Assembly (NCBI GenBank): GCA_963641445.1
Contig: CAVIBR010000008.1
Coordinates: 4,282-68,281, forward strand
DNA from: Bacteroides uniformis
GTDB lineage: Bacteria; Bacillota_I; Bacilli_A; RFN20; CAG-826
Direction: 5' to 3'
DNA length: 64,000 nt
The first letter of the stretch is position 1. Every line of letters starts with the position of its first letter. A program made the translations under genes and the position numbers. A model generated the notes under the pieces. That model did no database searches. It saw only the letters and a list, made by a program, of their open reading frames with translations, and had not been told where the DNA came from. Positions 8,574 to 54,729 of this stretch are shown here, piece by piece.

Positions 8574-8638
8574 AAGGAACACTTAATGCATAAATAAGGA
8601 ACGAATAAGGAACCAACAAGGAACGAATAAGGAACGGA
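8574..8638. repeat. 11 bp tandem repeat (aataaggaacg), about 5 copies
   Basis: Seen directly. It lies between the ASCH gene and the next ATPase paralog. Confidence 0.8.
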
Positions 8639-8846
8639 AATTTAAGAATAAATATAGATATCATCGCATTTTATTCATGATTGTTATAAATTAACATTGC
8701 GTTGCCTAAAAAGAAGAAAACATACCTAATTTTATCGTTTGAGAAAAGAAGAATACGCCAAAGTATCCATCAAAAGTGCGCCAAAGTCTCCATTACTATT
8801 GCCTACTTTGGCGTTTTCTAGTAATATATCTCCAGAGAAACTTATT

Positions 8847-10121
8847 ATGAATGACTACAAAAAGAGAATAGTTGATGAGATATTAAAAGAAAAACTAGAA
8901 AGCAAAGCTGCGATTTTGATCGAAGGGCCTAAGTGGTGTGGCAAAACCACCGCGGCAGAACAAGCTTCAAAAAGCGTTCTATACATGACAAATCCAAGGT
9001 ATCTAAAACAAAACCTGATGCTTGCAGATTCTGATCCGACAATCCTTCTAAGAGGTGAAACGCCAAGACTAATTGATGAATGGCAAGTTGCTCCGAAGTT
9101 ATGGGATGCTGTTAGATTTGAAGCCGATCAAAGAAGAAGCTTTGGACAATTTATATTAACTGGTTCATCTCTTCCGCCAGATACTAGTGAAATTATTCAT
9201 ACTGGAACTGGCAGGTTTACTTGGGTTAAGATGCGACCTATGTCATTATTTGAATCAGGTGAGTCAAATGGCGTTATAAGTTTAGAAAAATTATTTGATG
9301 GCGAGACTGACATATATGGAGAATCTCATCTTTCCTTGGATGATGTTGCTTTTTTGACTTGTCGTGGAGGATGGCCTATTTCAACATATCTAAAAGGGAA
9401 AAGCGCTCTTTCGCAAGCTTATGATTATTTTGATGCAGTCGTTAATTCCGATATATCACGAGTTGATAATGTTGCTAGAGACCCAGAAAAAACCAAAAGA
9501 ATCATGGCTTCATATGCTAGATATCAAGGCGCACAAATAGGTGATGATGCAATAGTTAACGATATAAAGACATATGAAGATGAGCAAATAAGCGTTAAAA
9601 CGGTTCGTTCATATATTGATGCGTTGAAGAAAATTTTCGTTATTGAGGATATGAGGGCGTGGAATCCTAATTTACGTAGCAAAACCGCTATCAGAACATC
9701 GGATACAAGGTATTTCATCGATCCTTCGATAGCGGCAGCATCTTTAGGGTTTGGACCTGGCGATTTGCTTAACGATTTAAGAACGTTTGGCTTTATGTTT
9801 GAAACATTGGCTATTAGGGATCTAAGAATATACGCTGAAGCATTGAATGGTGATGTATATCATTTCAGAGACAAGAACGGCCTTGAATGTGATGCGGTCA
9901 TTCATTTAAGAAATGGCAATTATGGTTTAGTGGAAATCAAACTTGGTGGAGATATTCTTATCGAAGAAGGTGTAAAGAATTTGCTCAAGCTTAGAAATAT
10001 TATTGATACAAATAAGATGAAAGAACCATCTTTCTTGATGGTTCTAACTGCCATGGGAGATATTGCTTACAGAAGAGATGATGGTGTTCTTCTTGTACCT
10101 ATAGGTTGTCTTGGCAAATAA
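8847..10121 (+). CDS. AAA+ ATPase, AAA_14 + DUF4143 family (paralog of 5141..6424)
   Basis: Walker A ILIEGPKWCGKTT, with the same architecture as 5141..6424. Start is placed at MNDYKK by alignment of N-termini with the paralog. The ORF-track start at 8739 is probably over-extended. Confidence 0.75.
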   Translation: MNDYKKRIVDEILKEKLESKAAILIEGPKWCGKTTAAEQASKSVLYMTNPRYLKQNLMLADSDPTILLRGETPRLIDEWQVAPKLWDAVRFEADQRRSFGQFILTGSSLPPDTSEIIHTGTGRFTWVKMRPMSLFESGESNGVISLEKLFDGETDIYGESHLSLDDVAFLTCRGGWPISTYLKGKSALSQAYDYFDAVVNSDISRVDNVARDPEKTKRIMASYARYQGAQIGDDAIVNDIKTYEDEQISVKTVRSYIDALKKIFVIEDMRAWNPNLRSKTAIRTSDTRYFIDPSIAAASLGFGPGDLLNDLRTFGFMFETLAIRDLRIYAEALNGDVYHFRDKNGLECDAVIHLRNGNYGLVEIKLGGDILIEEGVKNLLKLRNIIDTNKMKEPSFLMVLTAMGDIAYRRDDGVLLVPIGCLGK

Positions 10122-23608: not shown

Positions 23609-24949
23609 CTATAGCAAAAATGTCATGTATATTGGCAAATATGTTGTTTCACCATCGTAGCTTAGGGTTTTTGGTGAGACAACGATTCTATTGAATTTCA
23701 ATTGAGGGTATTTCTCTTTTAATGTAGATAAAGATGAAGTGGTGAAACGTTTTGTTGGTTTTAATTCGATTGCATTCATCTTGCCTTTTATGAACGTGAC
23801 AAAATCTATCTCATATCTTTTATTTTCATATTCAAACGTATGGTAGAAACATTTTCTTCCATTGAAAACAAGGCTTTGAACGACCAATTATTCATAAAGA
23901 CTACCGTAATTTGCTCCATCGAGATTTCCCGTTCTTATTTTTAAATATGTTTTTTCACAATCTTCGTTCATATCTCCAATTAATGAAGATAACATTAGCC
24001 CGACATCAAGGGGGTGTAGTTTGAAATTGCTTTCTTCTTTCATAAATGAGCCAAAGCTTAAATCAGAACAACGATACACTGAATTAACGATTTTAGAATC
24101 TTCTAAGTCTTTTAGTGATCTTTGATAAGACTGCATCATCCTAGGGTTTCTAGCGTTTGTTTTTATTCTTTTTGACCATGATTTCAAGGCCGGAAGCATG
24201 GAATTGTATATATTCAAAGCGTTAGTATGAGATTTGCTATCATGTTTTCTTAAATCACCTTCGTATAGCTTTAAGATATCTTGTTTTTCTTTTTCACAAC
24301 GAATGAAAGAGTTTGTTTCTTGATATAAAGAGATGACTTTTGGCATGCCGCCTAGGGCTAAATACAATCTGAAATCATTCATTAATTGAGCATGAACTGA
24401 TTCATTTATCAATCTATGTTGATTTAGGATGTCACGTAGTAGGTCGCACTTCTCATTCCAGCCGAAAGCCCAGCAGAATTCTTCAAAATCAAGTGGATGC
24501 ATCTCAATTCTTCTTTCTTCGGAAGGAATTTGGATATCCTGCGTATTTTCTCTTATTGAAATTAGGGAACCTGTTTCTATATAGTCGAATCTTCCATCTA
24601 AAACAAGTGCTTTTATTGCTTGTCTTGCGAGAGGAAAATGCTGAACTTCATCAAAGATGATTAAGTCGCCTTTTTTCAATACCTTTCCAAATATCAAAAA
24701 CAAATCGGAAAAGAATTGATCCATATAGAGATTATTTGATGGATCGATGTTTTTGAATAGGTTCTTAACTTCGTCAGAAGCATAGGCGAAATCGATATAG
24801 ATGTAGTTGCTATACTCATTTTTAGCAAATTCTTTGACGGTTGTCGTTTTTCCAACTCGCCTTGCTCCTTCGATTAAAAGAACGAAATTTTTGTTCTTCT
24901 CATTTTTCCATTCTAACATCTGATCATATATTTTTCTTTTGAATTCCAT
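23609..24949 (-). pseudogene. AAA_14/DUF4143 ATPase interrupted by an in-frame TAA (353 aa + stop + 92 aa, same frame)
   Basis: Walker A LLIEGARRVGKTT. The downstream 92 aa is the usual C-terminal domain. The TAA at 23888-23890 is in frame and the next ORF resumes immediately. Confidence 0.6.
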
Positions 24950-24987: not shown

Positions 24988-25045
24988 AAAAACATGAAAA
25001 ACTTGTATTTGGAAGCATCCAAAAACATGAAAAACTTGTATTTGG
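24988..25045. repeat. 25 bp direct repeat x2 (aaaaacatgaaaaacttgtatttgg) in the upstream region of the ATPase pseudogene
   Basis: Seen directly. Confidence 0.8.
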
Positions 25046-27944: not shown

Positions 27945-28083
27945 AAGATCTTTTAGCGCTTAATATATAAGAAATTGACTAACAAGAATTTTTAGATATC
28001 AAAAATCAAGGTATTTTTGTCTTCGAAAAAGGGTAATAAATTAAAAAAACATAGAAAACATCTAACTTCTTAAAAAATACAAT

Positions 28084-28180
28084 CTCCGATTTTTATTCCT
28101 TTTTTGAGAAAACGATACCCCGATTTTATTCCTTTTTTTGAAAATCGATGTCCGGTTTTTATTCCTTTTTGCTTTAAGTT
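28084..28180. repeat. About 33 bp tandem repeat x3 (ccgatttttattcctttttt...)
   Basis: Seen directly upstream of 28284. Confidence 0.7.
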
Positions 28181-28283
28181 GACTAAAAGCAATGCATCTT
28201 TAGAAATAAACAAAATCTTTTATTAAAAGTTATAATTGAGGGAAAGAAAGTATAATTGCTTTATTACAAAGGAACGGTTAAAA

Positions 28284-28919
28284 ATGAAACAACTAGAAGA
28301 GAAACAATTAAAAGGCTTTCAAAATGAATTAGATAAAGTGCTGAATAGCTATATAAATATAAAGGATAAAAATGGTAAAGTTGTTTTTCAAATCGAACCT
28401 TTATGGATTGAGTATTATTTTTGGCTTGAAAATGGTGATAAATTGCAAGATCCTTCGTGTGATTATGGCAAAGTGGGCACGGAAAATAAGTTAACTGGCA
28501 ATAAATTATATTTTAGAAGTTTTAAACCTGGTAGTGATTGGAAACGTAACCGAATGGATATATGCGTAGGAAAAGACAATGGATATAGGTCGATTCTAAT
28601 AAAAAGAGCTAGATTTTTAAAAGCAGATGGAAAAGATGCGACTAGTGATAAAACAATTTATACTGACTCTCAAATCGCAAGCAAACTACTTGTATATGAT
28701 GGATACAAAAAATCTAATGCCAATGATGAATACGATTATTATAGTTACGAATTGATATCTAAAAATGGTGCATTGGAAAAAGAAAAAATAGGTTATTGTG
28801 GACGTATCGGAATATATGGGGACAAAAGCAATCCATTTAATGAAGAGCCATTGGCAGCATATATTAAAGACTTATTCGAAATTCGGACTTTTATAAAAGA
28901 TAAAACTGATAAAAACTAA
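28284..28919 (+). CDS. Hypothetical protein
   Basis: Start chosen at MKQLEEKQL with RBS AAAGGAACGG. I recognise no motif. Confidence 0.45.
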   Translation: MKQLEEKQLKGFQNELDKVLNSYINIKDKNGKVVFQIEPLWIEYYFWLENGDKLQDPSCDYGKVGTENKLTGNKLYFRSFKPGSDWKRNRMDICVGKDNGYRSILIKRARFLKADGKDATSDKTIYTDSQIASKLLVYDGYKKSNANDEYDYYSYELISKNGALEKEKIGYCGRIGIYGDKSNPFNEEPLAAYIKDLFEIRTFIKDKTDKN

Positions 28920-28993
28920 ATTGATTTTTCATCCAATTTAAACTACTTTTCTTAGTTCTTTTTTATACATGTTTTTTGATAAAAATTATTTCA

Positions 28994-29110
28994 GGGCGAA
29001 AAAGCATAAAAAATATACGATTTCGCCCTAAAAAGCAATTGACTTGAGATATACGGCTTTTAAAATATATTATATAGAGCGAAAAACACTAAATTTTATA
29101 CGATTTCGCC
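28994..29110 (+). repeat. Two copies of hairpin family 1 ([ag]gcgaaaa - 19 nt loop - tttcgc[ct]); the second abuts the RBS of the ATPase gene
   Basis: Copies at 28994-29030 and 29077-29110. Confidence 0.8.
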
Positions 29111-29120
29111 GGAGAATATT

Positions 29121-30542
29121 ATGATAGGCAGAGAAAAAGAAGTAAATGAGTTACTAGATTTATACAATGATTCTAGGGCGGAGTTAGTCGCCGTTTATGG
29201 CAGAAGAAGAGTTGGTAAAACGTTTTTAATCAACCAAACATTTAAAGACAAATTTACTTTTAAACATACCGCTTTATCCCCGGATGGCAATGAAGATGAA
29301 ACAATAGCATTACAATTAGAAAGTTTTTATAGCAGTTTAGTTAAATATGGTTTAGAAGAAACTAAGAAGCCTTCCACTTGGTTCGAAGCATTTGATTTGT
29401 TAGAGAAATTGCTTATCAAGAAAGATAACGGATCTAGGCAAGTTGTATTTTTCGATGAATTACCTTGGCTGGATACTACGAAATCATATTTTATAAAAGC
29501 ATTTGAGTCTTTTTGGAATTCATTTGGCTGCGATAGAGAGAATTTGATGCTGATTGTTTGTGGAAGTGCCAATTCTTGGATTCAAAACAATTTGATTAAC
29601 AATCATGGTGGTTTGTATGGACGTGTCACATATGAGATAAAACTTAGCGCTTTTAATTTAAAAGAGACAGAAGAATATCTAAGGTCCAACGGAATCCTTT
29701 TATCAAGATATGATATTGCAACCGCATATATGATAATGGGGGGAATACCTTATTATTTAGGATATCTCAAAAAAGGAAAAAGTCTTCCTCAGAATATCGA
29801 TGATATTTTCTTCAAGAAAGATGGACAATTATCGTTGGAATTTGATAGATTATTTCAATCATGTTTTGAAAATCCTGATTTTGCAAAGAAACTTGTTATT
29901 TTGCTAAATGAAAGAAAAATCGGATTAACGAGAAATGAAATTGTTGAAAAGCTATCTATTGGTGATGGAGGAAATTTAACAAAAGTTCTTAATTCATTAA
30001 TCTCTAGCGATTTTGTAATTAAATATATTCCATTTGGGACTAAATCAAAAATAAGCTATTACAAATTGATTGACCCATTTTGTATCTTTTATCTGAAATT
30101 TAAATACGAGAAAAGTCCAAGCGAAAGTTATTGGTCCGATAACGATACAAACTCCCAACTTAATTCATGGAAGGGACTAGCTTTTGAAAATGTCTGTTTC
30201 AATCATATAAACCAAATCAAAGATGCGTTAAGAGTTGGTGGAGTGGCAAGCAAAGAATCACCTTGGTATTTCAAAGGTATTGACAACAACGGACAAGTTG
30301 ATTTGGTTATTGAAAGAAATGATAATGTCGTAAATCTTTGCGAGATTAAATTCTATCAATATGATTTTTCCGTTGATCTGAATTATTACAAAAAATTAAA
30401 TTTAAGAATAGAAGCGGCTAGACCATATGTTTCTAAGAGAACTTGCATTTTCAATACTTTGATTACGACTTATGGGTTGCATCAAAATGAGTACAGCAAT
30501 GTTTTCCAAAACGTGATAACTCTTGATGCTCTATTTGAGTAG
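29121..30542 (+). CDS. ATPase of a second family (Arch_ATPase/DUF234-like), paralog 1
   Basis: N-terminus MIGREKEVNELLDLY...VYGRRRVGKTFLI. Confidence 0.8.
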   Translation: MIGREKEVNELLDLYNDSRAELVAVYGRRRVGKTFLINQTFKDKFTFKHTALSPDGNEDETIALQLESFYSSLVKYGLEETKKPSTWFEAFDLLEKLLIKKDNGSRQVVFFDELPWLDTTKSYFIKAFESFWNSFGCDRENLMLIVCGSANSWIQNNLINNHGGLYGRVTYEIKLSAFNLKETEEYLRSNGILLSRYDIATAYMIMGGIPYYLGYLKKGKSLPQNIDDIFFKKDGQLSLEFDRLFQSCFENPDFAKKLVILLNERKIGLTRNEIVEKLSIGDGGNLTKVLNSLISSDFVIKYIPFGTKSKISYYKLIDPFCIFYLKFKYEKSPSESYWSDNDTNSQLNSWKGLAFENVCFNHINQIKDALRVGGVASKESPWYFKGIDNNGQVDLVIERNDNVVNLCEIKFYQYDFSVDLNYYKKLNLRIEAARPYVSKRTCIFNTLITTYGLHQNEYSNVFQNVITLDALFE

Positions 30543-30580
30543 AAGATATTTCATTTATTTCCTTTATATATCAATAAACT

Positions 30581-30615
30581 AGAGCGAAAAACACTATAAT
30601 TGATACGATTTCGCT
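30581..30615 (+). repeat. Hairpin family 1, downstream copy
   Basis: agagcgaaaaacactataattgatacgatttcgct. Confidence 0.8.
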
Positions 30616-31031
30616 TTAGCTTATTTTCTATTGACATAATTATCTATATGAATGAGGGGTTTGTTTTCGCTTTCTAATAGATAATTAATATCCTATTTAT
30701 ATACAAAGATATAGATAACTAAATAATGGATATTCATAATTTTTTTGATCTATACGCAAAAGATACTGGAGTAAACATTTTTTATATAAAATGAAACTAC
30801 TGTAATCTCCATTCTTACAAAAAGTCCCTATTTTCCTAGGTTTCCTATTTATATAAAGATATTTATAGGATTACAAGAAAACAAAATATGTTTCATATAA
30901 AAATAGTAAAAGTAACAAAAATATAAAAAATATTACATTTTCTCTTGCAATGGTTACAAAAGGGTGTATTATATAGCCAAGAGATACAAAGCAGTTGAAC
31001 TTGTAACTCTTAGAAAAGTGAGGCAAAACTT

Positions 31032-32687
31032 ATGAAAAAGAAAAAATTACTCCTAACTGCATTGGTTCCTGCCACTTTATTTGGCATGGCCTCATGCGGT
31101 AACAACAACACCAGCTCAGATACAACTGAGAATTCAAATACTTCGGAATACAAAGAAGAAGACACATCCTTCGATAACTCCTTCTTACTAACATCCGGAG
31201 GCAACCGTCGCTTATCCGCAGAACCATTCATTGATGACGCGACACAGCAAATTATCGATGCGTTAATTTCTAAGGGTGGCGATCTTATCACCGGAGGTAT
31301 TACAACCTATGGTAAGACTGTCGTCATTAATCTTCTTAAAGAATGTGGAATTGACTTCAGAGACGCAACAGCTAAGACTCTTGATAAAATCCAAGAACAA
31401 CTTGGCGCCATCCAAGAGAAGATCACCGCTTTAGCGGAACAAGAAAATCAACACCATTCTGAAGAAATCCTTAACCCAGTTCTTAAACTTGTTAAGAAAG
31501 GTTCCCATTATAGCACCTACTTCGTTGTAAATGGCTTATGTGACTTAGTTGAGCTTGAAACGGATTCCACTTTAACCGAAGATCAAGTTGAAGCGGCAAG
31601 AAAACAATACTATACAGACGCAATCAGCAAACTCTTTATCGATGGTAAGCCATTCGCTGACTTCGTTACTGAAATAGCTGAAGCAGTTCTTACGCCAAAC
31701 GGCGCTGACTTATCAAAAGATATCTTCTATTACTATGATGAAACACTTGGCGTATACGATACCTGGTCAACATTGAAGATCCAAAACATCCAGAACTTCG
31801 CAGCCTATATCGATAGCGTTCTTGTCTCTTGTGCAAACATCGCTAAATTCCAGATGTATTATTACACCCAAGATATGGGCGATATCGCTAAGAAGAGCTA
31901 TGCGAAGATGATTGATACGATGGCCACTTCGATTAACGCCGTTAACGAAAAATTCAAAAAGACTCTTGAATCCCTTCAACCTCTTATCGAAAAGAGAGAC
32001 AAAGGCATTGTCACCTATATGAAGAGTGGCAAAGACTATTCAAGACGTATGGCAACCTTAACATATGACATCAATGATAAGGTTGGAGATAACGATTCTC
32101 GCCAAGGATTAATCAAAGACTTCCACCAATATGAAGATGGCAGAAGGGGTAACTTACTCCGTTACGCCTTACAATATGTGCCAGATACGACATTCGTTGC
32201 ACAAGTTGCAGCAGACTTCAAAACATATTCTCAAGCCTTCTATACACCTGATTACACGCTTATCGATTACTTGAAATATGCTGGATTCTATGCGGTAAAC
32301 CAAGATCTATTCGATAAATCACTTGGCTTGTATAACGCTAACATGTATGCCGATGGATATGGCTGGTATGGTGAAGACTATGACTATTGCGGTACATATT
32401 ACGACACACATGGCGATTATAAGAGAAAGGTTAACTACAGAGTTGCATCCTACCATAACTGGAATGGTAACCCCGTAAGGACAAGACTTGATAACGTTGA
32501 TGCTGGTAACTACTATCTCTGCTTCGCAACTCCTAGTGGAGATAAGCAAGTATTAGATGGCAAATACAGCCTTGTCTATATGAAAGATGAACTCTACACA
32601 GTTCAAAAAGCATCCTTCTTCGATGAATATTACGATGATGTTTATGACAACAACAAGACTGGTTGGTATTTACATGATTGCTGGTAA
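31032..32687 (+). CDS. Large lipoprotein (lipobox GMASCG), function unknown
   Basis: MKKKKLLLTALVPATLFGMASCGNNNT. Confidence 0.65.
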   Translation: MKKKKLLLTALVPATLFGMASCGNNNTSSDTTENSNTSEYKEEDTSFDNSFLLTSGGNRRLSAEPFIDDATQQIIDALISKGGDLITGGITTYGKTVVINLLKECGIDFRDATAKTLDKIQEQLGAIQEKITALAEQENQHHSEEILNPVLKLVKKGSHYSTYFVVNGLCDLVELETDSTLTEDQVEAARKQYYTDAISKLFIDGKPFADFVTEIAEAVLTPNGADLSKDIFYYYDETLGVYDTWSTLKIQNIQNFAAYIDSVLVSCANIAKFQMYYYTQDMGDIAKKSYAKMIDTMATSINAVNEKFKKTLESLQPLIEKRDKGIVTYMKSGKDYSRRMATLTYDINDKVGDNDSRQGLIKDFHQYEDGRRGNLLRYALQYVPDTTFVAQVAADFKTYSQAFYTPDYTLIDYLKYAGFYAVNQDLFDKSLGLYNANMYADGYGWYGEDYDYCGTYYDTHGDYKRKVNYRVASYHNWNGNPVRTRLDNVDAGNYYLCFATPSGDKQVLDGKYSLVYMKDELYTVQKASFFDEYYDDVYDNNKTGWYLHDCW

Positions 32688-32704
32688 GCACTAAGCAGAG
32701 TCTT

Positions 32705-32741
32705 AGAGGAACTAAAGAGAAATCTTAGTTCCTCTTTTTTG
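32705..32741 (+). terminator. Rho-independent terminator
   Basis: agaggaactaa-agagaaatc-ttagttcctct + tttttt. Confidence 0.75.
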
Positions 32742-33095
32742 TGCTAGAAAATCCAAATATCATATGCAAAACCCATCTAAAACTTCATTTCTAGAAATAT
32801 TAAATTCTTTTTGAACGTTACATAAATAATGTTACAAACGTCAATATGATATTATTCGCATCTCTAGCAAAAAGATGCTTAGCAATACGTATTTTTCTTC
32901 CTCTTGTATCTTAAGGATGAACCAATCTTAGAGAAATATCTAAATTAATGATGAAAATAGGAACAAATGTTCGATTAGATATGGGTCTCACTTAGACATC
33001 CTTAAGAATATAAGATTATTCTGGGAGGTGTTCGATATTAGAAATAAGAGAATTAGAAAGAAGAATACGAGTCTAGAAATTAAGGAGGAAAAAGA

Positions 33096-33728
33096 ATGAG
33101 TGTTGTTGTGGCGATAAAAGAAAATGGAAAGGTTTATATGGGTTGCGATTCCCAAGTTACTTGTGGAACGACCAAAAGCACTCTAAGCAATCCTAACAAC
33201 TTTAAGATGTGGAAAGTCAAAGGAGTTGATAATTGCCTTATGGCAAGCGTTGGGGACGTAAGAAATGCTTGCGTGATAAGAACAATAGAAGATCTTGTTA
33301 CCGAATACGATGCCTATAAAGGACGTATTTGTTATGAGTTTGTTGTGAATAGGATTCTTCCTACAATCATTGAACGTCTTCAAGATGCTAATTATCTAAA
33401 AAGAGATGAAGTCTTTAGAGATTTAGGCTCAAGCATCTTGTTTGCCTATAAAGATCAGCTATATGAGATCTGTTACGATGGGTCGGTGTTTGAAATTGAT
33501 GGCTGCGTAGCGCTTGGAAGTGGAATGAAACAAGCTCTTGGAAGCATGATTGAAAGAGAAGGGGAAGATCCAAAAACAAGGATCGTCAAAGCAATCAAAT
33601 CAAGCATGTCTGATATCTATGTCGATTATCCGATAATCTTATCTGATACGGAAACAACAGAATTTAATATAATCGCTAAGGAAAACGAAACAGATTACCT
33701 TAAATCCATCGAAGGTCAAACTAGATGA
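33096..33728 (+). CDS. HslV-like / proteasome-beta-like Ntn hydrolase (peptidase T1 family)
   Basis: MSVVVAIKENGKVYMGCDSQVTCG compares to HslV [23 protein letters not shown], and CVALGSGMKQALG to AIGSGGPYAQAA. The predicted N-terminal nucleophile is Ser2 rather than Thr. Strong RBS. Confidence 0.6.
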   Translation: MSVVVAIKENGKVYMGCDSQVTCGTTKSTLSNPNNFKMWKVKGVDNCLMASVGDVRNACVIRTIEDLVTEYDAYKGRICYEFVVNRILPTIIERLQDANYLKRDEVFRDLGSSILFAYKDQLYEICYDGSVFEIDGCVALGSGMKQALGSMIEREGEDPKTRIVKAIKSSMSDIYVDYPIILSDTETTEFNIIAKENETDYLKSIEGQTR

Positions 33729-33855
33729 AGTTCTTAGGACATATTTTATCTGGCTTGTCCTAGTTTCTTTAGGATATGTCATTTGCTATTTTGGTTGGTT
33801 AAATACGCTAATTAGATGGATTGAAAATTTAGACCATTAATTAAGGAGAATTTGA

Positions 33856-35148
33856 ATGGAAAAATATACTTTAGATAATTTTGGTGGATATGAAGAAGAA
33901 AAGATTGAAGCGGAGAAAATAATCAATTTCTTAAAAAATTATGATTATTACGTCTCACAAGGGGCGTATCTTCCTAAAGGGATGCTCATATACGGTCAAC
34001 CAGGAACAGGAAAGACGATGTTATCGAAGATCATCTCTAGCGAAGCAAACGTTCCTCTTGTCACTCTAGATTTGAAGAATTCTGCTAACTTCAATTTGAT
34101 TGACGCGATAAATAAGGTCTTTGATCAAGCGCTTAGCAAGACTCCATCCGTCTTATTGCTTGATGAGATTGATCAAACCGTTAAGATGAGAAGATACGGT
34201 GATGCGACCGATAGAGAGAATGATGTTCTTAGAACATTGCTAACAAGAATTGATGGAATCAATACCTCTGATGGGGTATTTATCATTGCAACATCAAACG
34301 TTTCCTCGGTTGAAGAATGTGACCAAGCCTTAACTAGACAAGGAAGAATTGAAAAATACATCAGCCTACATTTACCGAATATCGATGAAAGAAAAGAAAT
34401 TCTAAAAATCTATCTCAATAAGAATCACATATTCGATGATGTCAATGTTGCTACACTTGCTAAACGTACAAAAGGGTTTAGTGGATCATCAATTAAATCC
34501 TTGATCAATTCCGTCTTGATATGGGCCTTAAATGAGAAAGTGGATAATGTTTCTACAGATGATTTCTATCAATATATCCAGCAAATATCTCATCGTGGAA
34601 TCAATAAGAAAAAGACTTCTGATACGGATTTAAAGGCTACGGCATATCATGAATTAGGACATTTCATCTGTGACTATATTCTAAATAAGAATATTGGAAC
34701 AATATCAATTGAAACATATGGTGAGACCGCTGGAGCATATAGACGCGTTCAAGACGAAGAAAGAGAAAATACTAGCTATACAGCCTTAAAGAATGAAATT
34801 ACTGTTGCCTTAGGAGGACTTGCTGCAGTTGAAGTGTATCTAGGAGAAAAATACACTGGAGCAGCAAGCGATATCAAAAAGGCTAGAGGCATATATGAAG
34901 AAATGCTTGATAATGGGATGCTCGGCCTAGATAGACTAAATGAAGCACCATTAAGATTGAGGTCAATTGCTGTACTTAGCTTATCTGAGGAATACCTATC
35001 TAGAGAAGGAAAATTCATGACTGAATGTTATCAGGCTGCAACGAACATTATTAAAGAAAACAAAGAAATAATTGATAAGCTCTATCCAATCTTAGTTAAG
35101 AATAAAATCATCTTCGAATCTAAGATTAATGAGATATTGAAGAAGTAG
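33856..35148 (+). CDS. Soluble FtsH-like AAA+ ATPase with M41 metallopeptidase domain (no TM or periplasmic region)
   Basis: Walker A GQPGTGKT, Walker B LLLDEID, second region of homology ATSNVSSVEECDQALTRQGRIEKYI. M41 zinc motif TAYHELGHF plus a TGAASDIKKAR block like FtsH TGASNDIKVAT. Confidence 0.75.
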   Translation: MEKYTLDNFGGYEEEKIEAEKIINFLKNYDYYVSQGAYLPKGMLIYGQPGTGKTMLSKIISSEANVPLVTLDLKNSANFNLIDAINKVFDQALSKTPSVLLLDEIDQTVKMRRYGDATDRENDVLRTLLTRIDGINTSDGVFIIATSNVSSVEECDQALTRQGRIEKYISLHLPNIDERKEILKIYLNKNHIFDDVNVATLAKRTKGFSGSSIKSLINSVLIWALNEKVDNVSTDDFYQYIQQISHRGINKKKTSDTDLKATAYHELGHFICDYILNKNIGTISIETYGETAGAYRRVQDEERENTSYTALKNEITVALGGLAAVEVYLGEKYTGAASDIKKARGIYEEMLDNGMLGLDRLNEAPLRLRSIAVLSLSEEYLSREGKFMTECYQAATNIIKENKEIIDKLYPILVKNKIIFESKINEILKK

Positions 35149-35519
35149 ATTACAGGTATCTCGTAGTGGGATGCCTTTTAATATTGGAAAAACGGATTGA
35201 TTCTTTTTGATTTCGAATGGGATATTTGGATTGCCTAAAAGGTTATTCAATCTAGAGGAAATAGGTGCAAAGAGTTTCTTAAGGCGAAAGAAACATTATA
35301 ATGAAGAACCAGTCAATGAAAGTAAAAACATTCATCTTAGCAAAAATGTTTGGACGGCTTGTTAGAGAATAAGCAGATGTGCTTATCAAAAAGATGAATA
35401 AAGAAAAAACTACAGAAGTGATTAACAAGAGAATTTTCATCGTAGATTAGCAAAATAATAAAGCTTCACATATGTTTTTTGGATTTTTGAGCAATAAATT
35501 CTTTAAGTGGAATTTTTAT

Positions 35520-35640
35520 TTTTGGCGGAAAGTGTCAAAAAAAATTGAGTTTCCGCCAAAAATGTTTAGAATTTTTTCTTATTTTTATGATAAGATAATT
35601 GGCGGAAAGTACTAAAAAAATTGAGTTTCCGCCAAAAATG
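35520..35640 (+). repeat. Two copies of hairpin family 2 (ttttggcggaaa - 18 nt loop - tttccgccaaaa); the second abuts the RBS
   Basis: Copies at 35520-35564 and 35598-35640. Confidence 0.8.
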
Positions 35641-35652
35641 GAGGTTTAAAGT

Positions 35653-37071
35653 ATGATTATCGGAAGAGAAAAAGAAGTCAATATCTTGCAAGAAAATTAT
35701 AAGTCGGATGGATCATCATTTATTGCAGTTTATGGCAGAAGAAGAATTGGTAAAACTTTTCTTATCAATGAAACTTTGGGCGATAAAATTCTTTTTAGGC
35801 ATGCAGGCATTTATGGTGGCACTTGCAAACAGCAAATAAAGTCTTTCATGAAATCTCTTGCTGAATATGGATATGCTCCCCAAGACAACGTTAAGGATTG
35901 GTTTGACGCTTTCGAAGAATTGAAAAATTATATAAAGTCTTCCAATGAAAGCAAAAAGGTTTTGTTTTTTGATGAAATCGCTTGGATGTATACGAAAAAA
36001 TCTGATTTCGTTCGTGCATTAGAATATTTCTGGAATAGCTGGGCAAGTGCTAGAAAAGATATTATGTTAGTGATTTGCTCTTCTGCAACATCTTGGATAA
36101 TCAACAATATAGTTCATAGCAAAGGCGGTTTATATAATAGGATTACGGCACAAATATATTTAGAACCATTTACATTGAATGAGTGTGAAAAATATTGTGC
36201 ATACAAGAATTTAGCTTTGACTCGTAAACAAATAATTGAAACCTATATGGTTATTGGTGGTGTTCCATATTATTGGAATTATCTAAAAAAAGGAGAATCA
36301 GTTGCTAAATTTATTGATAACAATTTCTTTGCTAACAATTCTCCATTAAGTGATGAACTGAAATATATATTTTCTTCTTTGTTTTCTTCGCCTGAAGCTT
36401 ATTTAAAAATCATTGAGGCGTTATCAGAGAAAAAATATGGCTTAACTAGGCAAGAAATTCTAATTGAAACAAAGCAGGATGAAAACGGCAATTTCTCACA
36501 AAAAATAGAAGATTTAGTAAACTGCGGATTTATAAGAGAGTATTCATCTTTCAAATCGAAAAAGAAAGAAGTACTTTACCAATTGATTGATCCTTTTACC
36601 ATTTTCCATTTTCATTTTTTGAAGAAAAGAGTGAATGATGAGAATTTTTGGGCAAATCAAATAAATTCTCCTACTATAAACGCATGGAAAGGCCTTGCTT
36701 TTGAAAGAATCTGCCTGTTGCATCTAAATAGTATTAAGAAAGCAATGGGAATATTTGGAGTATATACATCAGTTTATCCTTTTTCATGCAAGCAAAATGA
36801 GGAGAAGAACATATTCGGATCTCAAATTGATATGGTTTTAGAAAGAAAAGACGATATTGTGAATCTTTTTAAAATTAAATATTATGATGAGCCTTTCTCA
36901 TTAACTAAAAAGCATCTTGAATTATTTTCAAGGAAAAAACATGATTTTGTGGAAGTTACAAAAACCAAATCATCTATTCATTTATCTTTGATTTCATTGA
37001 ATGGCGTAGTTGAAAACGAGTATCTTAATGAGATTCAAACCGTTCTTAACGAAGATGATTTGTTCTTATAA
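35653..37071 (+). CDS. ATPase of a second family (Arch_ATPase/DUF234-like), paralog 2
   Basis: MIIGREKEVNILQENY...VYGRRRIGKTFLI. Confidence 0.8.
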   Translation: MIIGREKEVNILQENYKSDGSSFIAVYGRRRIGKTFLINETLGDKILFRHAGIYGGTCKQQIKSFMKSLAEYGYAPQDNVKDWFDAFEELKNYIKSSNESKKVLFFDEIAWMYTKKSDFVRALEYFWNSWASARKDIMLVICSSATSWIINNIVHSKGGLYNRITAQIYLEPFTLNECEKYCAYKNLALTRKQIIETYMVIGGVPYYWNYLKKGESVAKFIDNNFFANNSPLSDELKYIFSSLFSSPEAYLKIIEALSEKKYGLTRQEILIETKQDENGNFSQKIEDLVNCGFIREYSSFKSKKKEVLYQLIDPFTIFHFHFLKKRVNDENFWANQINSPTINAWKGLAFERICLLHLNSIKKAMGIFGVYTSVYPFSCKQNEEKNIFGSQIDMVLERKDDIVNLFKIKYYDEPFSLTKKHLELFSRKKHDFVEVTKTKSSIHLSLISLNGVVENEYLNEIQTVLNEDDLFL

Positions 37072-37091
37072 ATTGTAGCTTTTTAATTATT

Positions 37092-37134
37092 TTTGGCGGA
37101 AAGTGCCTAAAAAATTGAGTTTCCGCCAAAAATG
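37092..37134 (+). repeat. Hairpin family 2, downstream copy
   Basis: ttttggcggaaagtgcctaaaaaattgagtttccgccaaaaatg. Confidence 0.8.
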
Positions 37135-37443
37135 TTAAAAATATCAATCAAAAACAAAGTTAAAATAAAGTATTTATCGAATTCTTTTGTTACCTATTTT
37201 TCACACCAACAAATTGTTGTTTTAACGCATTATAACGATGACTGTTTTGAAAAATGATAACAAATGATAACAAATGACAACAAATTTGACATAATACTCT
37301 AAGCAAGGAGGCTTATATGATAGGGAATTATACAATAGCCCATTCAATGTATCGTATGCGAACAACCAAAATGCTTTATTCCAAGAAAAGGCGAATTTGA
37401 AGAAATAAGAACTGTTTTTTCATCTGATGACCCTAGGACAAAA

Positions 37444-38376
37444 GTGTTTCTTATTGGTGGGTCTAGAGGATGTGGGAAGACCGTTTTACTTTCTCAACTC
37501 AAAGAACATTTCGATAAAAGTGATGATTGGGTTTGCGTTGATTTAAATCCGTTTTTAGATATGTTTGAACAACTTGCCTCTAAACTCTACTCGGAAGGAA
37601 AACTTAAACATCTATTTTTGAAAAGTGAATTTTCTATTTCTTTCAAGGGCATTTCCTTTTCTCTTTCTGGAGAGAATCCAGTTACTGATGCATCCTCATT
37701 AATAAAGGCGATGTTGCAGTATTTAAAAAAGAAAGGGAAACGTGTCTTGATAACTATTGATGATATATCAGGAAATTCTGAAGCAAAGGCTTTCTTCCAA
37801 GGCTACCAATCGTTCATTAGAGAGAAGTTTGATATCTTTCTCCTTATGACTGGTTTATATGAAAATGTATCTAATATTGTTAACGATAAAAGTCTAACCT
37901 TCCTTCTAAGGACTCCTAACATATACTTATCAAAGTTAAACGTTAGGGGGATTAGCCTTTCATATCAAAACCAGTTGGGCGTTGGCTTTGACAAGGCTTT
38001 AGAATTCGCAAAGCTTACTAAGGGCTACGCCTATGCATATCAATTACTTGGCGACCTTTTATACCGCACTGACAAAAAAATTACTGAAGAAATTCTTCAA
38101 TCTTTTGATTCTACATTAGAAGATAACGTATATAACAAGATTTGGAGCTCTTTATCTAAGAATCAAAAAACGATATGTTATGCGTTGTCTTCATTAAATA
38201 AAAAAGAAGTTAAAGAACTAATTGATTCAACTGGCTTCTCTAATTCGATGATTCAAGTATACAAAAAGAGAATGTATTTAGTGGGTATATTAGATTTATC
38301 AACTAGAGGAGAAATAGATTTTTCTTTGCCTAGATTTAAAGAATTTGTTAAATTTCAAAAAGCGTTAGAAGAATAA
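37444..38376 (+). CDS. Divergent P-loop ATPase paralog with no canonical start; possible pseudogene
   Basis: GGSRGCGKT. The frame is open back to 37339 with no ATG. The ORF track begins at a GTG. Confidence 0.4.
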   Translation: MFLIGGSRGCGKTVLLSQLKEHFDKSDDWVCVDLNPFLDMFEQLASKLYSEGKLKHLFLKSEFSISFKGISFSLSGENPVTDASSLIKAMLQYLKKKGKRVLITIDDISGNSEAKAFFQGYQSFIREKFDIFLLMTGLYENVSNIVNDKSLTFLLRTPNIYLSKLNVRGISLSYQNQLGVGFDKALEFAKLTKGYAYAYQLLGDLLYRTDKKITEEILQSFDSTLEDNVYNKIWSSLSKNQKTICYALSSLNKKEVKELIDSTGFSNSMIQVYKKRMYLVGILDLSTRGEIDFSLPRFKEFVKFQKALEE

Positions 38377-53116: not shown

Positions 53117-53157
53117 TTTCCCTAAAAGTAGTATTTTTCACCAAGTTTTAGGGAATT
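53117..53157 (-). repeat. Hairpin family 3 (ttccctaaaa - 20 nt loop - ttttagggaa), copy downstream of the minus-strand ATPase gene
   Basis: atttccctaaaagtagtatttttcaccaagttttagggaat. Confidence 0.8.
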
Positions 53158-53164
53158 ATAACTA

Positions 53165-54592
53165 TTAGAGGAATAAGTCTTCTCCGATAATTTCCTTTTG
53201 AATTACATCGGAATGAGAATTCTCTTTCAAACCGTTATTAGTAATCATCGTTAACACCAATTGTTCATTTGGTTTAACTTCATTTGCAAAGACTTGTATT
53301 TTGTGAAGAAGATTCTCTTCATAATCTTTTGTTATTTCATATTTGCCAATGGAATGTTTGATTTCACATACGTTTATGATCATGTCTCTTCTATGAATCA
53401 ATAAATCGATTTGAGCGCCAGGATCTGATTTTTTGCTTTTCCAGGAATATTCTTTTGTCATTACTCCTGATATCCCTAAAGCATTTTTAATCGAAGATAT
53501 ATTGTTTAGGCAAAGAATTTCAAAAGCATGTCCTGCCCAAGCATAATATGCAGGCGTATTTATGAATGATAGCCAATTGTCGAAAGAGGGTGAGATGAGA
53601 AAAGTTTTAGCAAACAAAGTGAATGGATCAATTAATTGGTAGAACTTATTGTTTTTTGCCGTGTTATAGTTTTCATAGGCTCTTACAAAACCACACTCGG
53701 ATAATTCTTCTAAAGCAGTAGTTAAGGATTTTCCATCACCTATAGATGAAATCGAAGCAAGTTCTTTTCTTTGCATACCCATGCTTTTCTTCATCAATGC
53801 TTCGATTATTTCTCTATGTTTCCCTTTTGCGTTGAATAGAGACCTAAACAAAGCCTGATATTCGTCATGCAACTGACCACTTTCTTTGAAACATAAATTA
53901 TCGATATTTTGAGCTAAGCTCATTTCTGAATCTAATAAATCCCAATAATATGGGATTCCGCCAAAAACCATGTAAGTTTCAATTATTTGGCTTTTTGTAT
54001 AATGCAATTTCAATTGCTCGCTATATAAAAGACATTCTTTCAATGAGAAAGGCATTAGATGTATTTTTCTTGTCAAACGATTATAAAAACCGCCAGTATC
54101 TTTGACCATGTTGTTCATAATCCAAGATGTAGCAGAACCACATACAATGAAGACTAAGTCGTTTTGCATTGAACCATAGGTATTCCAGAATGAATCTAAG
54201 CCTGCTTTAAAATCGCTTCTTTTCCCATCCATCCACGGTAATTCATCTAAGAATACAATTCTTTTCTTATAAATTGGATCACGATAAACGTTATCGCTTT
54301 CTAAGAATTTCTTTAGAAGCCTAAAAGCGTCAAGCCAATCCTTTGGCTCAGAGCCATCTTCAATCTTATAGCTATAATCAACCAAGGCATTGGTGAAATT
54401 CTTTAGTTGAAAAGCATTGTTTTTGTTATTTATGCCACTGGCATAGAAAGAGAACTTGTTGTTAAAGAACTTTTTAATAAGATATGTTTTGCCGACTCTT
54501 CGTCTTCCGTATAAAACCAAGAATTCTGGTTTAGAAGATTTTAGGCAAGATAGAAGTTCTTTTTGCTCATCAACACGACCGATTAAGTTCAT
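53165..54592 (-). CDS. ATPase of a second family (Arch_ATPase/DUF234-like), paralog 3
   Basis: MNLIGRVDEQKELLSCL...LYGRRRVGKTYLI. Same architecture as 29121 and 35653. Confidence 0.8.
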   Translation of the reverse strand: MNLIGRVDEQKELLSCLKSSKPEFLVLYGRRRVGKTYLIKKFFNNKFSFYASGINNKNNAFQLKNFTNALVDYSYKIEDGSEPKDWLDAFRLLKKFLESDNVYRDPIYKKRIVFLDELPWMDGKRSDFKAGLDSFWNTYGSMQNDLVFIVCGSATSWIMNNMVKDTGGFYNRLTRKIHLMPFSLKECLLYSEQLKLHYTKSQIIETYMVFGGIPYYWDLLDSEMSLAQNIDNLCFKESGQLHDEYQALFRSLFNAKGKHREIIEALMKKSMGMQRKELASISSIGDGKSLTTALEELSECGFVRAYENYNTAKNNKFYQLIDPFTLFAKTFLISPSFDNWLSFINTPAYYAWAGHAFEILCLNNISSIKNALGISGVMTKEYSWKSKKSDPGAQIDLLIHRRDMIINVCEIKHSIGKYEITKDYEENLLHKIQVFANEVKPNEQLVLTMITNNGLKENSHSDVIQKEIIGEDLFL

Positions 54593-54604: not shown

Positions 54605-54729
54605 ATTTCCCTAAAAGTTGTGGATTTTGATAAGTTTTAGGGAATTATAGATATATTATAGACTACTTTTTGAACTTATAAATAGTTATATTTCCCTAAA
54701 AGTTGTGTTTTCTAATAAGTTTTAGGTAA
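54605..54729 (-). repeat. Two copies of hairpin family 3 upstream of the minus-strand ATPase gene; the proximal one abuts the RBS
   Basis: Copies at 54605-54645 and 54689-54729. Confidence 0.8.

What the first reader, a model, noticed from the sequence alone, without database searches (positions are those of the whole stretch)
28994..30615. ATPase paralog bracketed by its own hairpin family, one of three such cassettes
Gene 29121..30542 is preceded by two copies and followed by one copy of an element with 8 bp G/C-containing arms ([ag]gcgaaaa / tttcgc[ct]) around a 19 nt A/T loop. The RBS-proximal copy ends 10 nt before the ATG. The paralogs at 35653 and 53165 have the same layout built from different hairpin families (see the next two findings). 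Paralog-specific flanking hairpins in a fixed 2 + 1 arrangement suggest each ATPase gene moves or is converted together with its flanks as a mobile gene cassette, comparable to attC-bounded or PATE/IS200-end-bounded units. Alternatively the sites are gene-specific operators.
Basis: seen in the sequence. Interest (0 to 1): 0.65.

Follow-up and report, generated by a model that had tools for sequence, protein, structure and literature searches.

The report
Gene-specific operator repeats around ATPase-nuclease genes
Each of three related ATPase-nuclease genes (an untested candidate phage-defence family) carries its own private palindromic DNA sites around its promoter and after its stop codon; these are most likely binding sites through which the protein controls its own gene, not hairpins that move the gene around.

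Summary
Gene 29121-30542 has two inverted repeats (IRs) upstream and one downstream: GCGAAA-N19-TTTCGC, 3 matches against 0.09 expected. The paralogs at 35653 and 53165 repeat the layout with different arms.

All three proteins are full-length PADLOC PDC-S27 members, built as an ORC/STAND-like AAA+ domain, a winged helix (wHTH) and a PD-(D/E)XK nuclease.

The repeats are a family-wide feature:
- 60 of 82 homologous loci from many phyla have their own IRs upstream, against 11 of 40 control regions.
- Successive dyads are spaced 26-27 bp apart, which fits arrays of half-sites.
- They flank or overlap predicted promoter elements. In Bacteroidota the -7 box lies inside or next to the IR.
- Arms stay conserved down to 62% protein identity while the flanks diverge.
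- Cross-taxon DNA homology starts at the distal IR.

The downstream copy is present in only about 20% of loci.

I found no recombinase in the window and no IR copies elsewhere in it. Identical proteins always sit in one genomic context. There is no G·U bias and no Rfam match.

Best reading (0.6, binding inferred): these are DNA operator arrays bound by the encoded protein, giving a self-contained, autoregulated gene unit. The mobile-cassette reading is not supported as a mechanism.

The parts
28993..29029 (+). IR1 of gene A (distal operator): AGGGCGAAA-N19-TTTCGCCCT, ending 10 nt before the predicted -35
   Evidence: The 35-nt core is 100% identical to IR1 of locus L082, whose protein is 78% identical.
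29039..29066 (+). Predicted sigma-70-type promoter TTGACT-N16-TAAAAT, lying between IR1 and IR2
   Evidence: a consensus match only. The -35 TTGACTTG is conserved in L082.
29079..29109 (+). IR2 of gene A (proximal operator): GCGAAA-N19-TTTCGC, between the predicted -10 and the RBS GGAG (29111-29114)
   Evidence: As RNA it folds no better than shuffles.
29121..30542 (+). Gene A, 473 aa, PDC-S27 family. AAA+ domain residues 1-190 (Walker A G27-T34, Walker B D112-E113), lid 196-250, winged helix 252-316 (nt 29874-30068), PD-(D/E)XK nuclease 319-473 (E356, D394, E408, K410)
   Evidence: Pfam ATPase_2 65.9 bits. PADLOC PDC-S27 E 1.6e-183. AlphaFold2 pLDDT 93. Foldseek hits to 2qen, ORC/Cdc6 and Apaf-1. 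Conserved residues.
30583..30615 (+). IR3 of gene A (downstream copy): AGCGAAA-N19-TTTCGCT, 40 nt after the stop codon, with no terminator-like site
   Evidence: IR3 is conserved at the same place in L082 although the spacer before it has diverged.
35520..35561 (+). IR1 of gene B: TTTTGGCGGAAA-N18-TTTCCGCCAAAA. The predicted -35 TTGAGT (35545) lies inside it
35599..35635 (+). IR2 of gene B, ending 17 nt before the ATG; the RBS GGAGG follows it
35653..37071 (+). Gene B, 472 aa, PDC-S27 paralog, 40% identical to A
37091..37131 (+). IR3 of gene B, 19 nt after the stop codon
54695..54726 (-). IR1 of gene C: (A)CCTAAAA-N18-TTTTAGG(G)
54607..54644 (-). IR2 of gene C: TTCCCTAAAA-N18-TTTTAGGGAA, starting about 10 nt after the predicted -10 TATAAT (54660-54655)
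53165..54592 (-). Gene C, 475 aa, PDC-S27 paralog, 39% identical to A
53118..53155 (-). IR3 of gene C, 9 nt after the stop codon

Best explanation
The 'hairpins' are double-stranded DNA operators. Each is a pair of inverted half-sites: a variable G/C-rich core of about 6 bp lying about 13 bp from the dyad, with A/T-rich flanks. I infer that the winged-helix domain of the ATPase-nuclease encoded next to them recognises these half-sites.

The sites flank or overlap the gene's own promoter. IR1 sits at or upstream of the -35. IR2 sits between the -10 or transcription start and the RBS. Bound protein would therefore repress its own transcription. This would keep a potentially toxic ORC/STAND-like AAA+ nuclease at a low, self-set level.

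The downstream copy, where present, would act as an auxiliary operator, for looping or as a roadblock. Each paralog has its own half-site core, so several paralogs can coexist in one genome without cross-talk. Promoter, operators and gene form one self-contained unit that keeps working after horizontal transfer.

Shown: the sites, their generality, their geometry, their position relative to predicted promoter elements, their selective conservation, and the protein's domain structure. Inferred: that the ATPase itself binds them, and that binding represses.
For: 1. The feature is general. 60 of 82 homologous loci (Lachnospiraceae, Prevotella, Bacteroidales, Treponema, Saprospiraceae, Propionibacteriaceae, Lentisphaerae) have an IR with arms of at least 8 bp in the 200 nt upstream, against 11 of 40 other intergenic regions (p=2e-6). 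Two or more IRs share arms in 24 of 82 loci against 2 of 40. Several loci that missed this cutoff have 7-bp arms.
2. The geometry fits half-site arrays. Successive dyads are 26-27 bp apart in 27 of 56 cases, 31-32 bp in 10, and 74-83 bp in 11. Half-sites alternate in orientation, up to 5 dyads upstream plus 3 downstream in L062. In such an array each half-site belongs to two IRs.
3. The position fits operators. Predicted promoters lie between IR1 and IR2, or overlap IR1. In L085, TTGATT-N17-TATAAT ends 9 nt before IR2. In Bacteroidota loci the TAnnTTTG -7 box lies inside the IR loop or 3' arm (L008, L017, L033, L035, L041, L208) or directly after the IR (L038, L053, L057, L073). In those cases the transcript could not contain the hairpin.
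4. Conservation is selective. The clade of gene A keeps GGGCGAAAA arms at 78, 68, 67 and 62% protein identity, in unrelated genomic contexts, while the sequence outside the IRs is not alignable.
5. The only gene in the conserved unit is the ATPase. Cross-taxon homology runs from about -110 or -93 to the stop codon (L041/L043 at 88.6% identity; L039/44/47/51).
6. The protein has a confident wHTH (residues 252-316) after an ORC/Cdc6- and Apaf-like AAA+ module.
7. Paralogs within one genome have different arms. This holds for the window's three genes, for L018 against L071, for L066 against L073, and for the two genes in L266.
8. There is no RNA signature. Internal arm mismatches are 29 G·T, 22 A·C and 37 other. 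IR2 of gene A folds no better than shuffles. There is no Rfam match.
Against: Binding by the ATPase is not demonstrated.
- My attempts to show that wHTH residues covary with the half-site core found no domain-specific signal. Only an anecdotal pattern appeared: Arg at helix-3 position 6 in 7 of 8 proteins paired with TTGGCGGAAA arms.
- Proteins only 38-51% identical to gene B carry the same 10-bp arms. Specificity is therefore not a simple function of overall relatedness.
- Half-site cores about 27 bp apart are unusual for a simple wHTH dimer.
- In the Firmicutes-type loci, including this window, IR2 and IR3 would be transcribed, so an added RNA-level role is not excluded.
- Autoregulation does not explain why a downstream copy exists at all three window genes.
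- Promoters are consensus predictions only.
- The control set is small (n=40), and 27% of control regions also have some IR.
- The IR was not detected for most of the distant (23-28% identical) relatives on viral contigs.
Confidence: 0.6

Rival explanations
1. The sites are bound by the encoded ATPase, but gene regulation is secondary. The phased half-site array would be an assembly or parking platform, comparable to ORC on ORB elements. ATP-dependent oligomers of the AAA+ nuclease would load on it, deform the A/T-rich centre, and be held inactive on their own locus until a trigger such as infection releases or activates them.
For: The closest structures are ORC/Cdc6 and STAND oligomeric switches. 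Inverted half-sites flank A/T-rich centres at a fixed core spacing of about 27 bp and repeat every 26-27 bp, about 2.5 helical turns. Some arrays have up to 8 dyads on both sides of the gene (L062, L068), more than simple repression needs. Copies exist downstream of the gene. The nuclease catalytic residues are intact.
Against: There is no direct evidence for oligomerisation or DNA melting. The A/T centres are only 13-19 bp. Many loci have a single proximal IR (L087, L270), which is enough for repression but a poor platform. The one published test of a PDC-S27 representative showed no phage protection, so even the defence context is unproven.
Confidence: 0.15
2. The IRs would be recombination or transposition ends, like attC or REP/PATE/IS200, perhaps cut by the gene's own PD-(D/E)XK nuclease. 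The gene would then excise and insert together with its flanks.
For: The family is scattered across phyla, and the nearest relatives sit in unrelated genomic contexts. DNA homology between taxa starts exactly at the outer edge of IR1 and, in A against L082, ends at IR3. IR1 and IR3 are direct repeats in the window. The protein carries a nuclease domain.
Against: - No integrase, transposase or HUH protein was detected in the annotated ORFs of the 64 kb.
- The downstream IR matches in only 11 of 61 loci; several close relatives have a normal terminator instead.
- L041/L043 homology ends at the stop codon with no 3' IR.
- There are no solo IRs or extra copies in the window.
- Identical proteins sampled in 272 and 58 data blocks always have the same immediate neighbours.
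- The IRs coincide with promoter elements and form 26-bp arrays, which recombination ends do not need.
- I noticed no target-site duplications when reading the flanks by eye; this was not a formal test.
Confidence: 0.08
3. The elements act as RNA or single-stranded hairpins. A stem-loop at the 5' end of the mRNA (IR2) and one at the 3' end (IR3) would stabilise the transcript, terminate transcription or gate translation.
For: In the window and other Firmicutes-type loci the predicted start lies just before IR2, and IR3 follows the stop codon. Seven of the nine window elements fold better than all 200 shuffles, at -10 to -21 kcal/mol. The genes have no canonical terminator.
Against: - IR1 lies upstream of the predicted promoter, so the gene's own promoter would not transcribe it.
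- IR2 of gene A is not stable (-4.1 kcal/mol, z -0.6).
- In Bacteroidota loci the -7 box lies inside the IR.
- There is no excess of G·U-compatible mismatches on the sense strand (29 against 22, with 37 non-wobble).
- Loops of 13-19 nt are long and are themselves conserved.
- No U-tract follows the stems, and no Rfam family matches.
- Arrays of alternating half-sites cannot all pair at once.
Confidence: 0.07
4. The sites are recognised by some other host factor, or are by-products of local duplication and gene conversion with no function.
For: Copies within one locus are more alike than copies between loci; in L085 the two IRs are identical, loops included. This shows concerted evolution or recent duplication.
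Against: Each paralog would need its own separate regulator, yet the conserved unit contains no other gene. Arms are conserved across genomes at 62-78% protein identity while the neighbouring sequence is not. The geometry is constant across phyla.
Confidence: 0.03

Closest known systems
PADLOC candidate defence system PDC-S27 (ATPase_2/DUF234 'AAA family ATPase', COG1672)
   Same: All three window proteins match the PDC-S27 profile over their full length (E about 1e-180). They have the published architecture of an ATPase fused to a PD-(D/E)XK domain.
   Different: PDC-S27 is defined by the protein alone. The papers I could search mention no flanking repeats, DNA-binding specificity or autoregulation. 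Its anti-phage role is unproven: the one representative tested in E. coli B was not among those that protected against T4, T5 or T7.
Controller (C) proteins and C-boxes of restriction-modification systems; likewise autoregulated toxin-antitoxin and defence regulators such as BrxR/CapW (from my own knowledge)
   Same: A mobile, potentially toxic nuclease unit carries palindromic operators at its own promoter. Operator specificity differs between systems, so units are self-contained after transfer and do not cross-talk.
   Different: In those systems a small dedicated HTH protein is the regulator. Here no separate regulator gene exists, and the large AAA+ nuclease itself would have to bind. The sites are much longer (about 40-50 bp), with half-site cores about 27 bp apart, phased arrays and sometimes copies downstream of the gene.
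Archaeal Orc1/Cdc6 initiators with their adjacent ORB-containing origins
   Same: Both have an AAA+ plus winged-helix protein; ORC/Cdc6 structures are among the best Foldseek hits. The gene lies next to inverted recognition elements that flank an A/T-rich segment. Each paralog has its own cognate sites (from my own knowledge). Arch_ATPase/Cdc6 overlap is noted for Methanococcales initiator candidates.
   Different: There is no Cdc6 Pfam hit. The window proteins carry an extra C-terminal nuclease. The A/T centres are only 13-19 bp. Multiple units sit among ordinary chromosomal genes in bacteria that use DnaA. There is no evidence of replication initiation.
Integron attC cassettes / REP-PATE-IS200 elements
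   Same: Imperfect inverted repeats border a single gene.
   Different: There is no integrase or Y1 transposase. Two copies lie upstream around an internal promoter. There is no genome-wide family, and the downstream copy is usually absent in homologs.

Membership tests
PDC-S27 (PADLOC-DB v2) | Full-length match to the PDC-S27 profile HMM | tested here: met
   PDLC04984: E 1.6e-183, 2.9e-180 and 5.6e-181, covering residues 1-472 of 473
PDC-S27 (PADLOC-DB v2) | Confers protection against phage | not testable with these tools
   It is only a candidate family. One representative tested in E. coli B was not among the four of eight candidates that protected (PMC12881386).
Pfam ATPase_2 (PF01637), ORC/STAND-like AAA+ | Score above the gathering threshold, with Walker A and Walker B motifs intact | tested here: met
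   65.9, 54.5 and 43.6 bits against a cutoff of 33.2. G27-K33-T34 and D112-E113 are invariant in 47 sequences. Foldseek: 2qen E 1e-13, then Apaf-1 and ORC/Cdc6.
DUF234 / PD-(D/E)XK nuclease domain | Pfam DUF234 above threshold | tested here: inconclusive
   Gene A scores 21.3 bits against a cutoff of 22.5. B and C have no hit.
DUF234 / PD-(D/E)XK nuclease domain | Alpha-beta core with conserved E...D...ExK catalytic residues | tested here: met
   E356, D394 and K410 are invariant and E408 nearly so. The model shows helix 345-360 followed by strands 377-385, 390-399 and 403-410. DUF234 is classed as PD-(D/E)XK in PMC3424549.
Integron gene cassette (attC) | Integron integrase and attI nearby; a single attC at the 3' end of a usually promoterless gene | tested here: not met
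   No integrase in the window's annotated ORFs. Two of the three copies are upstream and bracket a predicted promoter.
REP / PATE / IS200-Y1 associated repeats | Many copies across the genome at unrelated genes, with a Y1 (RAYT/IS200) transposase | tested here: not met
   Each arm family occurs only at its own gene within the 64 kb. No Y1_Tnp hit. Only this window of the genome could be examined.
Rho-independent terminator (for the downstream copy) | G+C-rich stem, short loop, U-tract | tested here: not met
   0 terminator-like sites found. The IR3 loops are 17-19 nt and no T-run follows any of the three IR3 copies.
Autoregulatory operator of the encoded DNA-binding protein | Palindromic sites overlapping or flanking the gene's own promoter | tested here: met
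   The promoters are consensus predictions only.
Autoregulatory operator of the encoded DNA-binding protein | The encoded protein binds the sites and changes transcription | not testable with these tools
   A wHTH is present. Covariation tests were inconclusive.
Known RNA families (Rfam 15) | Match to a covariance model | tested here: not met
   No match at E<=0.1 in 28000-38000

The most novel reading that the evidence does not exclude
PDC-S27 genes, and perhaps the even more abundant PDC-S01 genes, are ORC-like 'initiator plus private replicator-like site' modules. The AAA+ nuclease would assemble in an ATP-dependent way on a phased array of its own hypervariable half-sites around its gene. 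The array would be more than an operator. It would be the platform that stores, licenses or triggers the nuclease, with specificity diversifying so that many paralogs stay insulated from each other in one genome. A more extreme version is that the protein cuts at these sites and so moves its own gene.
Probability: 0.15. Interest if true: 0.85.

Novelty: new variant of a known kind. Interest (0 to 1): 0.6.

Why it matters
PDC-S27 and its cousin PDC-S01 are among the most frequent 'candidate defence' genes in gut, rumen and archaeal genomes. Nothing is known about how they work, and the one published functional test was negative.

Each gene carries a private, conserved, geometrically fixed array of palindromic sites at its promoter. 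This gives four things:
- A concrete, testable biochemical handle: a predicted cognate DNA ligand for every family member.
- A possible reason why heterologous tests could mislead: expression may depend on, or be self-repressed through, the native operator, depending on how the gene was cloned.
- A large natural set of candidate orthogonal protein-operator pairs, useful for studying how winged-helix specificity evolves and for synthetic biology.
- A caution for annotation: these 'hairpins' should not be called terminators, REPs or mobile-element ends.

Tried and rejected
- **Covariation between protein regions and half-site similarity.** Spearman rho was 0.05-0.11 for every domain, and the wHTH was no better than the rest. 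A per-column Fisher scan against core classes gave top columns scattered over all domains, which indicates phylogenetic confounding. Inconclusive.
- **Metagenome scan with gene B's arms.** It returned at least 120 hits, but only 31 lie next to PDC-S27-like genes. At least 29 belong to an unrelated element of high-G+C soil bacteria next to DJ-1/PfpI-like genes, and the rest are miscellaneous, including one that lies about 70 nt from a tRNA gene. The pattern was therefore not specific enough to look for 'solo' sites.
- **Exact-protein look-ups of gene A's neighbours, to find empty sites.** Nothing on record.
- **Viral contigs.** 58 relatives were found, mostly distant (23-28% identity). Few have the typical IR at my thresholds, so the feature may be limited to the closer subfamily.
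- **Terminator reading of IR3.** Rejected.
- **REP reading.** Rejected.
- **Literature.** Searches for DUF234, COG1672, PF01637, Arch_ATPase, PABY2304 and PDC-S27 found no description of these repeats.
- **NCBIfam.** No model matches the three proteins. PDB sequence search: no hit.
Full report
**1. The observation**

Gene A (29121-30542) is preceded by two copies and followed by one copy of GCGAAA-N19-TTTCGC. The copies lie at 28996-29026, 29079-29109 and 30584-30614. These are the only three matches in the window. Shuffles give 0.09 on average, and none of 100 shuffles reaches three.

The perfect arms are 9, 6 and 7 bp. The loops are related to each other and point the same way. The proximal copy is followed by GGAG and then the ATG.

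The paralogs at 35653-37071 (B) and 53165-54592 on the minus strand (C) show the same 2+1 layout with other arms. B has TTGGCGGAAA/TTTCCGCCAA and C has TTCCCTAAAA/TTTTAGGGAA. None of the three arm families occurs anywhere else in the 64 kb. The three proteins are only about 40% identical to each other.

**2. What the genes are**

All three proteins pass Pfam ATPase_2. Gene A also has a sub-threshold DUF234 hit. All three match the PADLOC profile PDC-S27 over their full length, with E about 1e-180. PDC-S27 is a candidate single-gene defence system, described as an ATPase fused to a PD-(D/E)XK domain (PMC12988326; PMC3424549).

An AlphaFold2 model of gene A (pLDDT 93) shows four parts:
- an AAA+ core, residues 1-190;
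- a lid, residues 196-250;
- a canonical winged helix, residues 252-316, with three helices and a beta-hairpin wing;
- a C-terminal alpha/beta domain carrying invariant E356, D394 and K410, with E408 nearly invariant.

The closest solved structures are the Pyrococcus ATPase_2 protein 2qen, then Apaf-1, CED-4 and NLR proteins, and ORC/Cdc6. The protein is therefore an ORC/STAND-like switch ATPase with a DNA-binding domain and a nuclease.

The family is very large: 7971 of the 8000 scored candidates reached E<=1e-20. In the only experimental test I found, a PDC-S27 representative was not among the candidates that protected E. coli B from T4, T5 or T7 (PMC12881386).

**3. The repeats are a family trait, not a peculiarity of this window**

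I fetched 80 homologous loci from representative genomes. They cover Lachnospiraceae, Prevotella, Bacteroidales, Treponema, Succinivibrionaceae, Saprospiraceae, Propionibacteriaceae, Lentisphaerae and others. Most have their own inverted repeats upstream, with arm sequences that differ from locus to locus.

- An IR with perfect arms of at least 8 bp and a 10-28 nt spacer occurs in the 200 nt upstream of 60 of 82 family genes. The figure for other intergenic-like regions of the same loci is 11 of 40 (Fisher p=2e-6).
- Two or more IRs share arms in 24 of 82 family loci against 2 of 40 controls.
- Some loci that missed the cutoff have 7-bp arms.
- A matching downstream copy is present in only 11 of 61 loci that could be scored.

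Layouts range from 1+0 (L087, L270) through 2+0 (L084, L085) and 2+1 (the window, L082, L028) to 5+3 dyads (L062). The '2+1' pattern is therefore a local variant. The proximal upstream site is the constant element.

**4. Geometry**

I aligned the sites on their dyad. They share one frame: a variable G/C-rich core of about 6 bp lies about 12-17 nt from the centre. Examples of the core are GCGGA, GCCAA, GGCTT, GTCCA, CCCTA and GCGAA. Inside the core lies A/T-rich sequence, often AAA(C/G)T followed by an A- or T-tract. Outside it there is often a palindromic TATAAT-like stretch.

Centre-to-centre distances between successive upstream dyads peak sharply at 26-27 bp (27 of 56). Smaller groups lie at 31-32 bp (10) and 74-83 bp (11, about three periods). 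The window's genes fall in the last group.

In the dense arrays the half-sites alternate in orientation, so each half-site belongs to two overlapping 'hairpins' (L032, L041, L059, L062, L063). This is what an array of protein-binding half-sites looks like. It is not how a set of stem-loops behaves.

**5. Position relative to the promoter**

For gene A, a sigma-70-like TTGACT-N16-TAAAAT lies between IR1 and IR2, and its -35 is conserved in L082. For gene B, the best match places the -35 inside IR1. For gene C, TTTATA-N16-TATAAT ends about 10 nt before IR2. In L085, TTGATT-N17-TATAAT ends 9 nt before IR2.

In Bacteroidota loci, whose promoters use a TAnnTTTG -7 box (from my own knowledge), the box takes one of two positions. 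It lies inside the loop or 3' arm of the proximal IR in L008, L017, L033, L035, L041 and L208. It lies immediately downstream of a single IR in L038, L053, L057 and L073. In the first group transcription would start within or after the 3' arm, so the RNA cannot contain the hairpin.

All promoters here are consensus predictions.

**6. Conservation and the unit of inheritance**

Relatives of gene A at 78% (L082), 73% (L084), 68% (L085), 67% (L002) and 62% (L087) protein identity sit in unrelated genomic contexts. Four of these are IMPDH-guaA, DHH phosphoesterases, rpsR-ssb-rpsF and GGDEF-EAL. All keep GGGCGAAAA- or AGCGAAA-type arms at the same distances from the ATG.

IR1 of L082 is identical to IR1 of gene A over 35 nt, while the sequence just outside is not alignable. 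IR3 is conserved between gene A and L082 although the spacer between the stop codon and IR3 has diverged.

Between other taxa, DNA homology begins at the distal IR and ends at the stop codon. L041/L043 are 88.6% identical from -110 to +4. L039, L044, L047 and L051 align from about -93 to between -1 and +22. The inherited unit is therefore operators + promoter + gene, and it contains no other gene.

Paralogs within one genome have different arms. This holds for the window, for L018 against L071, for L066 against L073, and for the two genes in L266.

**7. Tests of the rival readings**

*RNA or single-stranded hairpin.*
- Internal arm mismatches show no sense-strand G·U bias: 29 G·T, 22 A·C and 37 other.
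- IR2 of gene A folds no better than shuffles.
- There is no terminator-like site and no Rfam match.

*Mobile cassette.*
- No integrase, transposase or HUH protein is found among the annotated ORFs of the window.
- There are no extra or solo copies in the window.
- The downstream repeat is usually absent.
- Two identical proteins, each seen in many samples (272 and 58 data blocks), always have the same immediate neighbours.

Horizontal transfer over long timescales is evident, but nothing points to the IRs as its mechanism.

*REP-like family.* Rejected for this window. A metagenome scan with gene B's arms returned at least 120 hits. Thirty-one lie next to PDC-S27-like genes. These genes are only 38-51% identical to the best-matching window paralog, usually B. 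The rest are unrelated, including at least 29 copies of a soil element next to DJ-1/PfpI-like genes.

**8. What I could not show**

I could not show that the ATPase itself binds the sites. Two covariation analyses found no wHTH-specific signal. There is only a hint: Arg at helix-3 position 6 in 7 of 8 proteins paired with TTGGCGGAAA arms. The inference rests on three things: the absence of any other gene in the conserved unit, the presence of a winged helix, and the gene-by-gene specificity of the sites.

**9. Verdict**

The best-supported explanation is that these are gene-specific DNA operator arrays for the encoded ORC-like ATPase-nuclease, which make each gene a self-contained, autoregulated and mutually insulated unit (confidence 0.6).

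A less conventional version remains open at about 0.15. In it the array is an assembly or sequestration platform rather than just an operator. The attC/PATE-like cassette mechanism is unlikely (about 0.08).

I found no description of these sites in the literature available to me. They would be a new variant of a known kind, namely autoregulated mobile nuclease genes, with ORC/ORB-like geometry.

Noticed in passing
window 5024-5088 (before ATG 5141); 8756-8813 (before ATG 8848); 24988-25043 minus strand (before ATG 24949): The PDC-S01-like AAA_14/DUF4143 ATPase genes in the window also have private repeats just upstream. The first has three tandem 23-nt repeats TTCAAAACACCGAAAATGAAACC. The second has CGCCAAAGT three times (two direct, one inverted). 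The third has two copies of AAATACAAGTTTTTCATGTTTTT 33 nt apart. The 'own cis-sites' principle may extend to the even more abundant PDC-S01 family.
   Followed up: partly
window 37254-37283 and 37318-38376: Directly after gene B's downstream IR lies a frameshifted ATPase_2 gene: an ATG at 37318, an early stop, then an ORF resuming at 37444. It is preceded by ATGATAACAA / ATGATAACAA / ATGACAACAA direct repeats. It is probably a decaying fourth family member with a different repeat type.
   Followed up: partly
whole window: The density of ORC-like ATPase-nuclease genes is unusual. There are three PDC-S27 genes, three PDC-S01-like genes (5141-6424, 8848-10121, 23888-24949), a DUF4143 fragment (4620-4931) and the ATPase_2 pseudogene, all within 64 kb. 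They are interspersed with ordinary genes (aldo-keto reductase, GH3, bile-salt hydrolase, GGDEF-EAL, P-type ATPase) and with Fic, Macro, Schlafen/AlbA_2 and SNF2+HNH+methyltransferase genes.
   Followed up: partly
window 33096-35148: Between genes A and B lies a pair of genes: an HslV/proteasome-like subunit (210 aa) and a soluble FtsH-like AAA + M41 peptidase (430 aa, with weak PADLOC IetA-like AAA matches). A 551-aa protein with no Pfam hit (31032-32687) precedes them. This could be another conflict-type module.
   Followed up: no
window 8590-8639: A run of AAGGAAC(G/C)AATA-like repeats lies downstream of the ASCH-domain gene 8196-8570 and about 200 nt upstream of the PDC-S01-like gene.
   Followed up: no
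L062 (Bacteroidales MAG) about -170 to -25 and +6 to +96 relative to the gene; L063, L032, L041, L059: These loci have very regular arrays of alternating TTGGCCAAAA-type half-sites with a 26-bp dyad period. L062 has five dyads upstream and three downstream of one PDC-S27 gene.
   Followed up: partly
L090, L095, L102, L120-L126, L171, L205 and other high-G+C soil metagenome contigs: An unrelated conserved element, TTGGCGGAAA-[TGTCAAAGAANCCTCGT or its complement]-TTTCCGCCAA, lies next to a DJ-1/PfpI-like gene. It has no Rfam match and is presumably the operator of another regulator.
   Followed up: partly
L266-L269 (GCA_910588955.1 and gut metagenomes): Two different ATPase_2 paralogs bracket a Fic gene and a sortase gene downstream of lysS. 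The first has AAAGCGGCGGT arms. The second has A/T-rich AAATCAATTTTAAT arms.
   Followed up: no
L053 upstream against downstream IR: The downstream copy has the A-tract of its centre inverted relative to the upstream copy. The relative orientation of upstream and downstream sites is therefore not fixed across the family.
   Followed up: no
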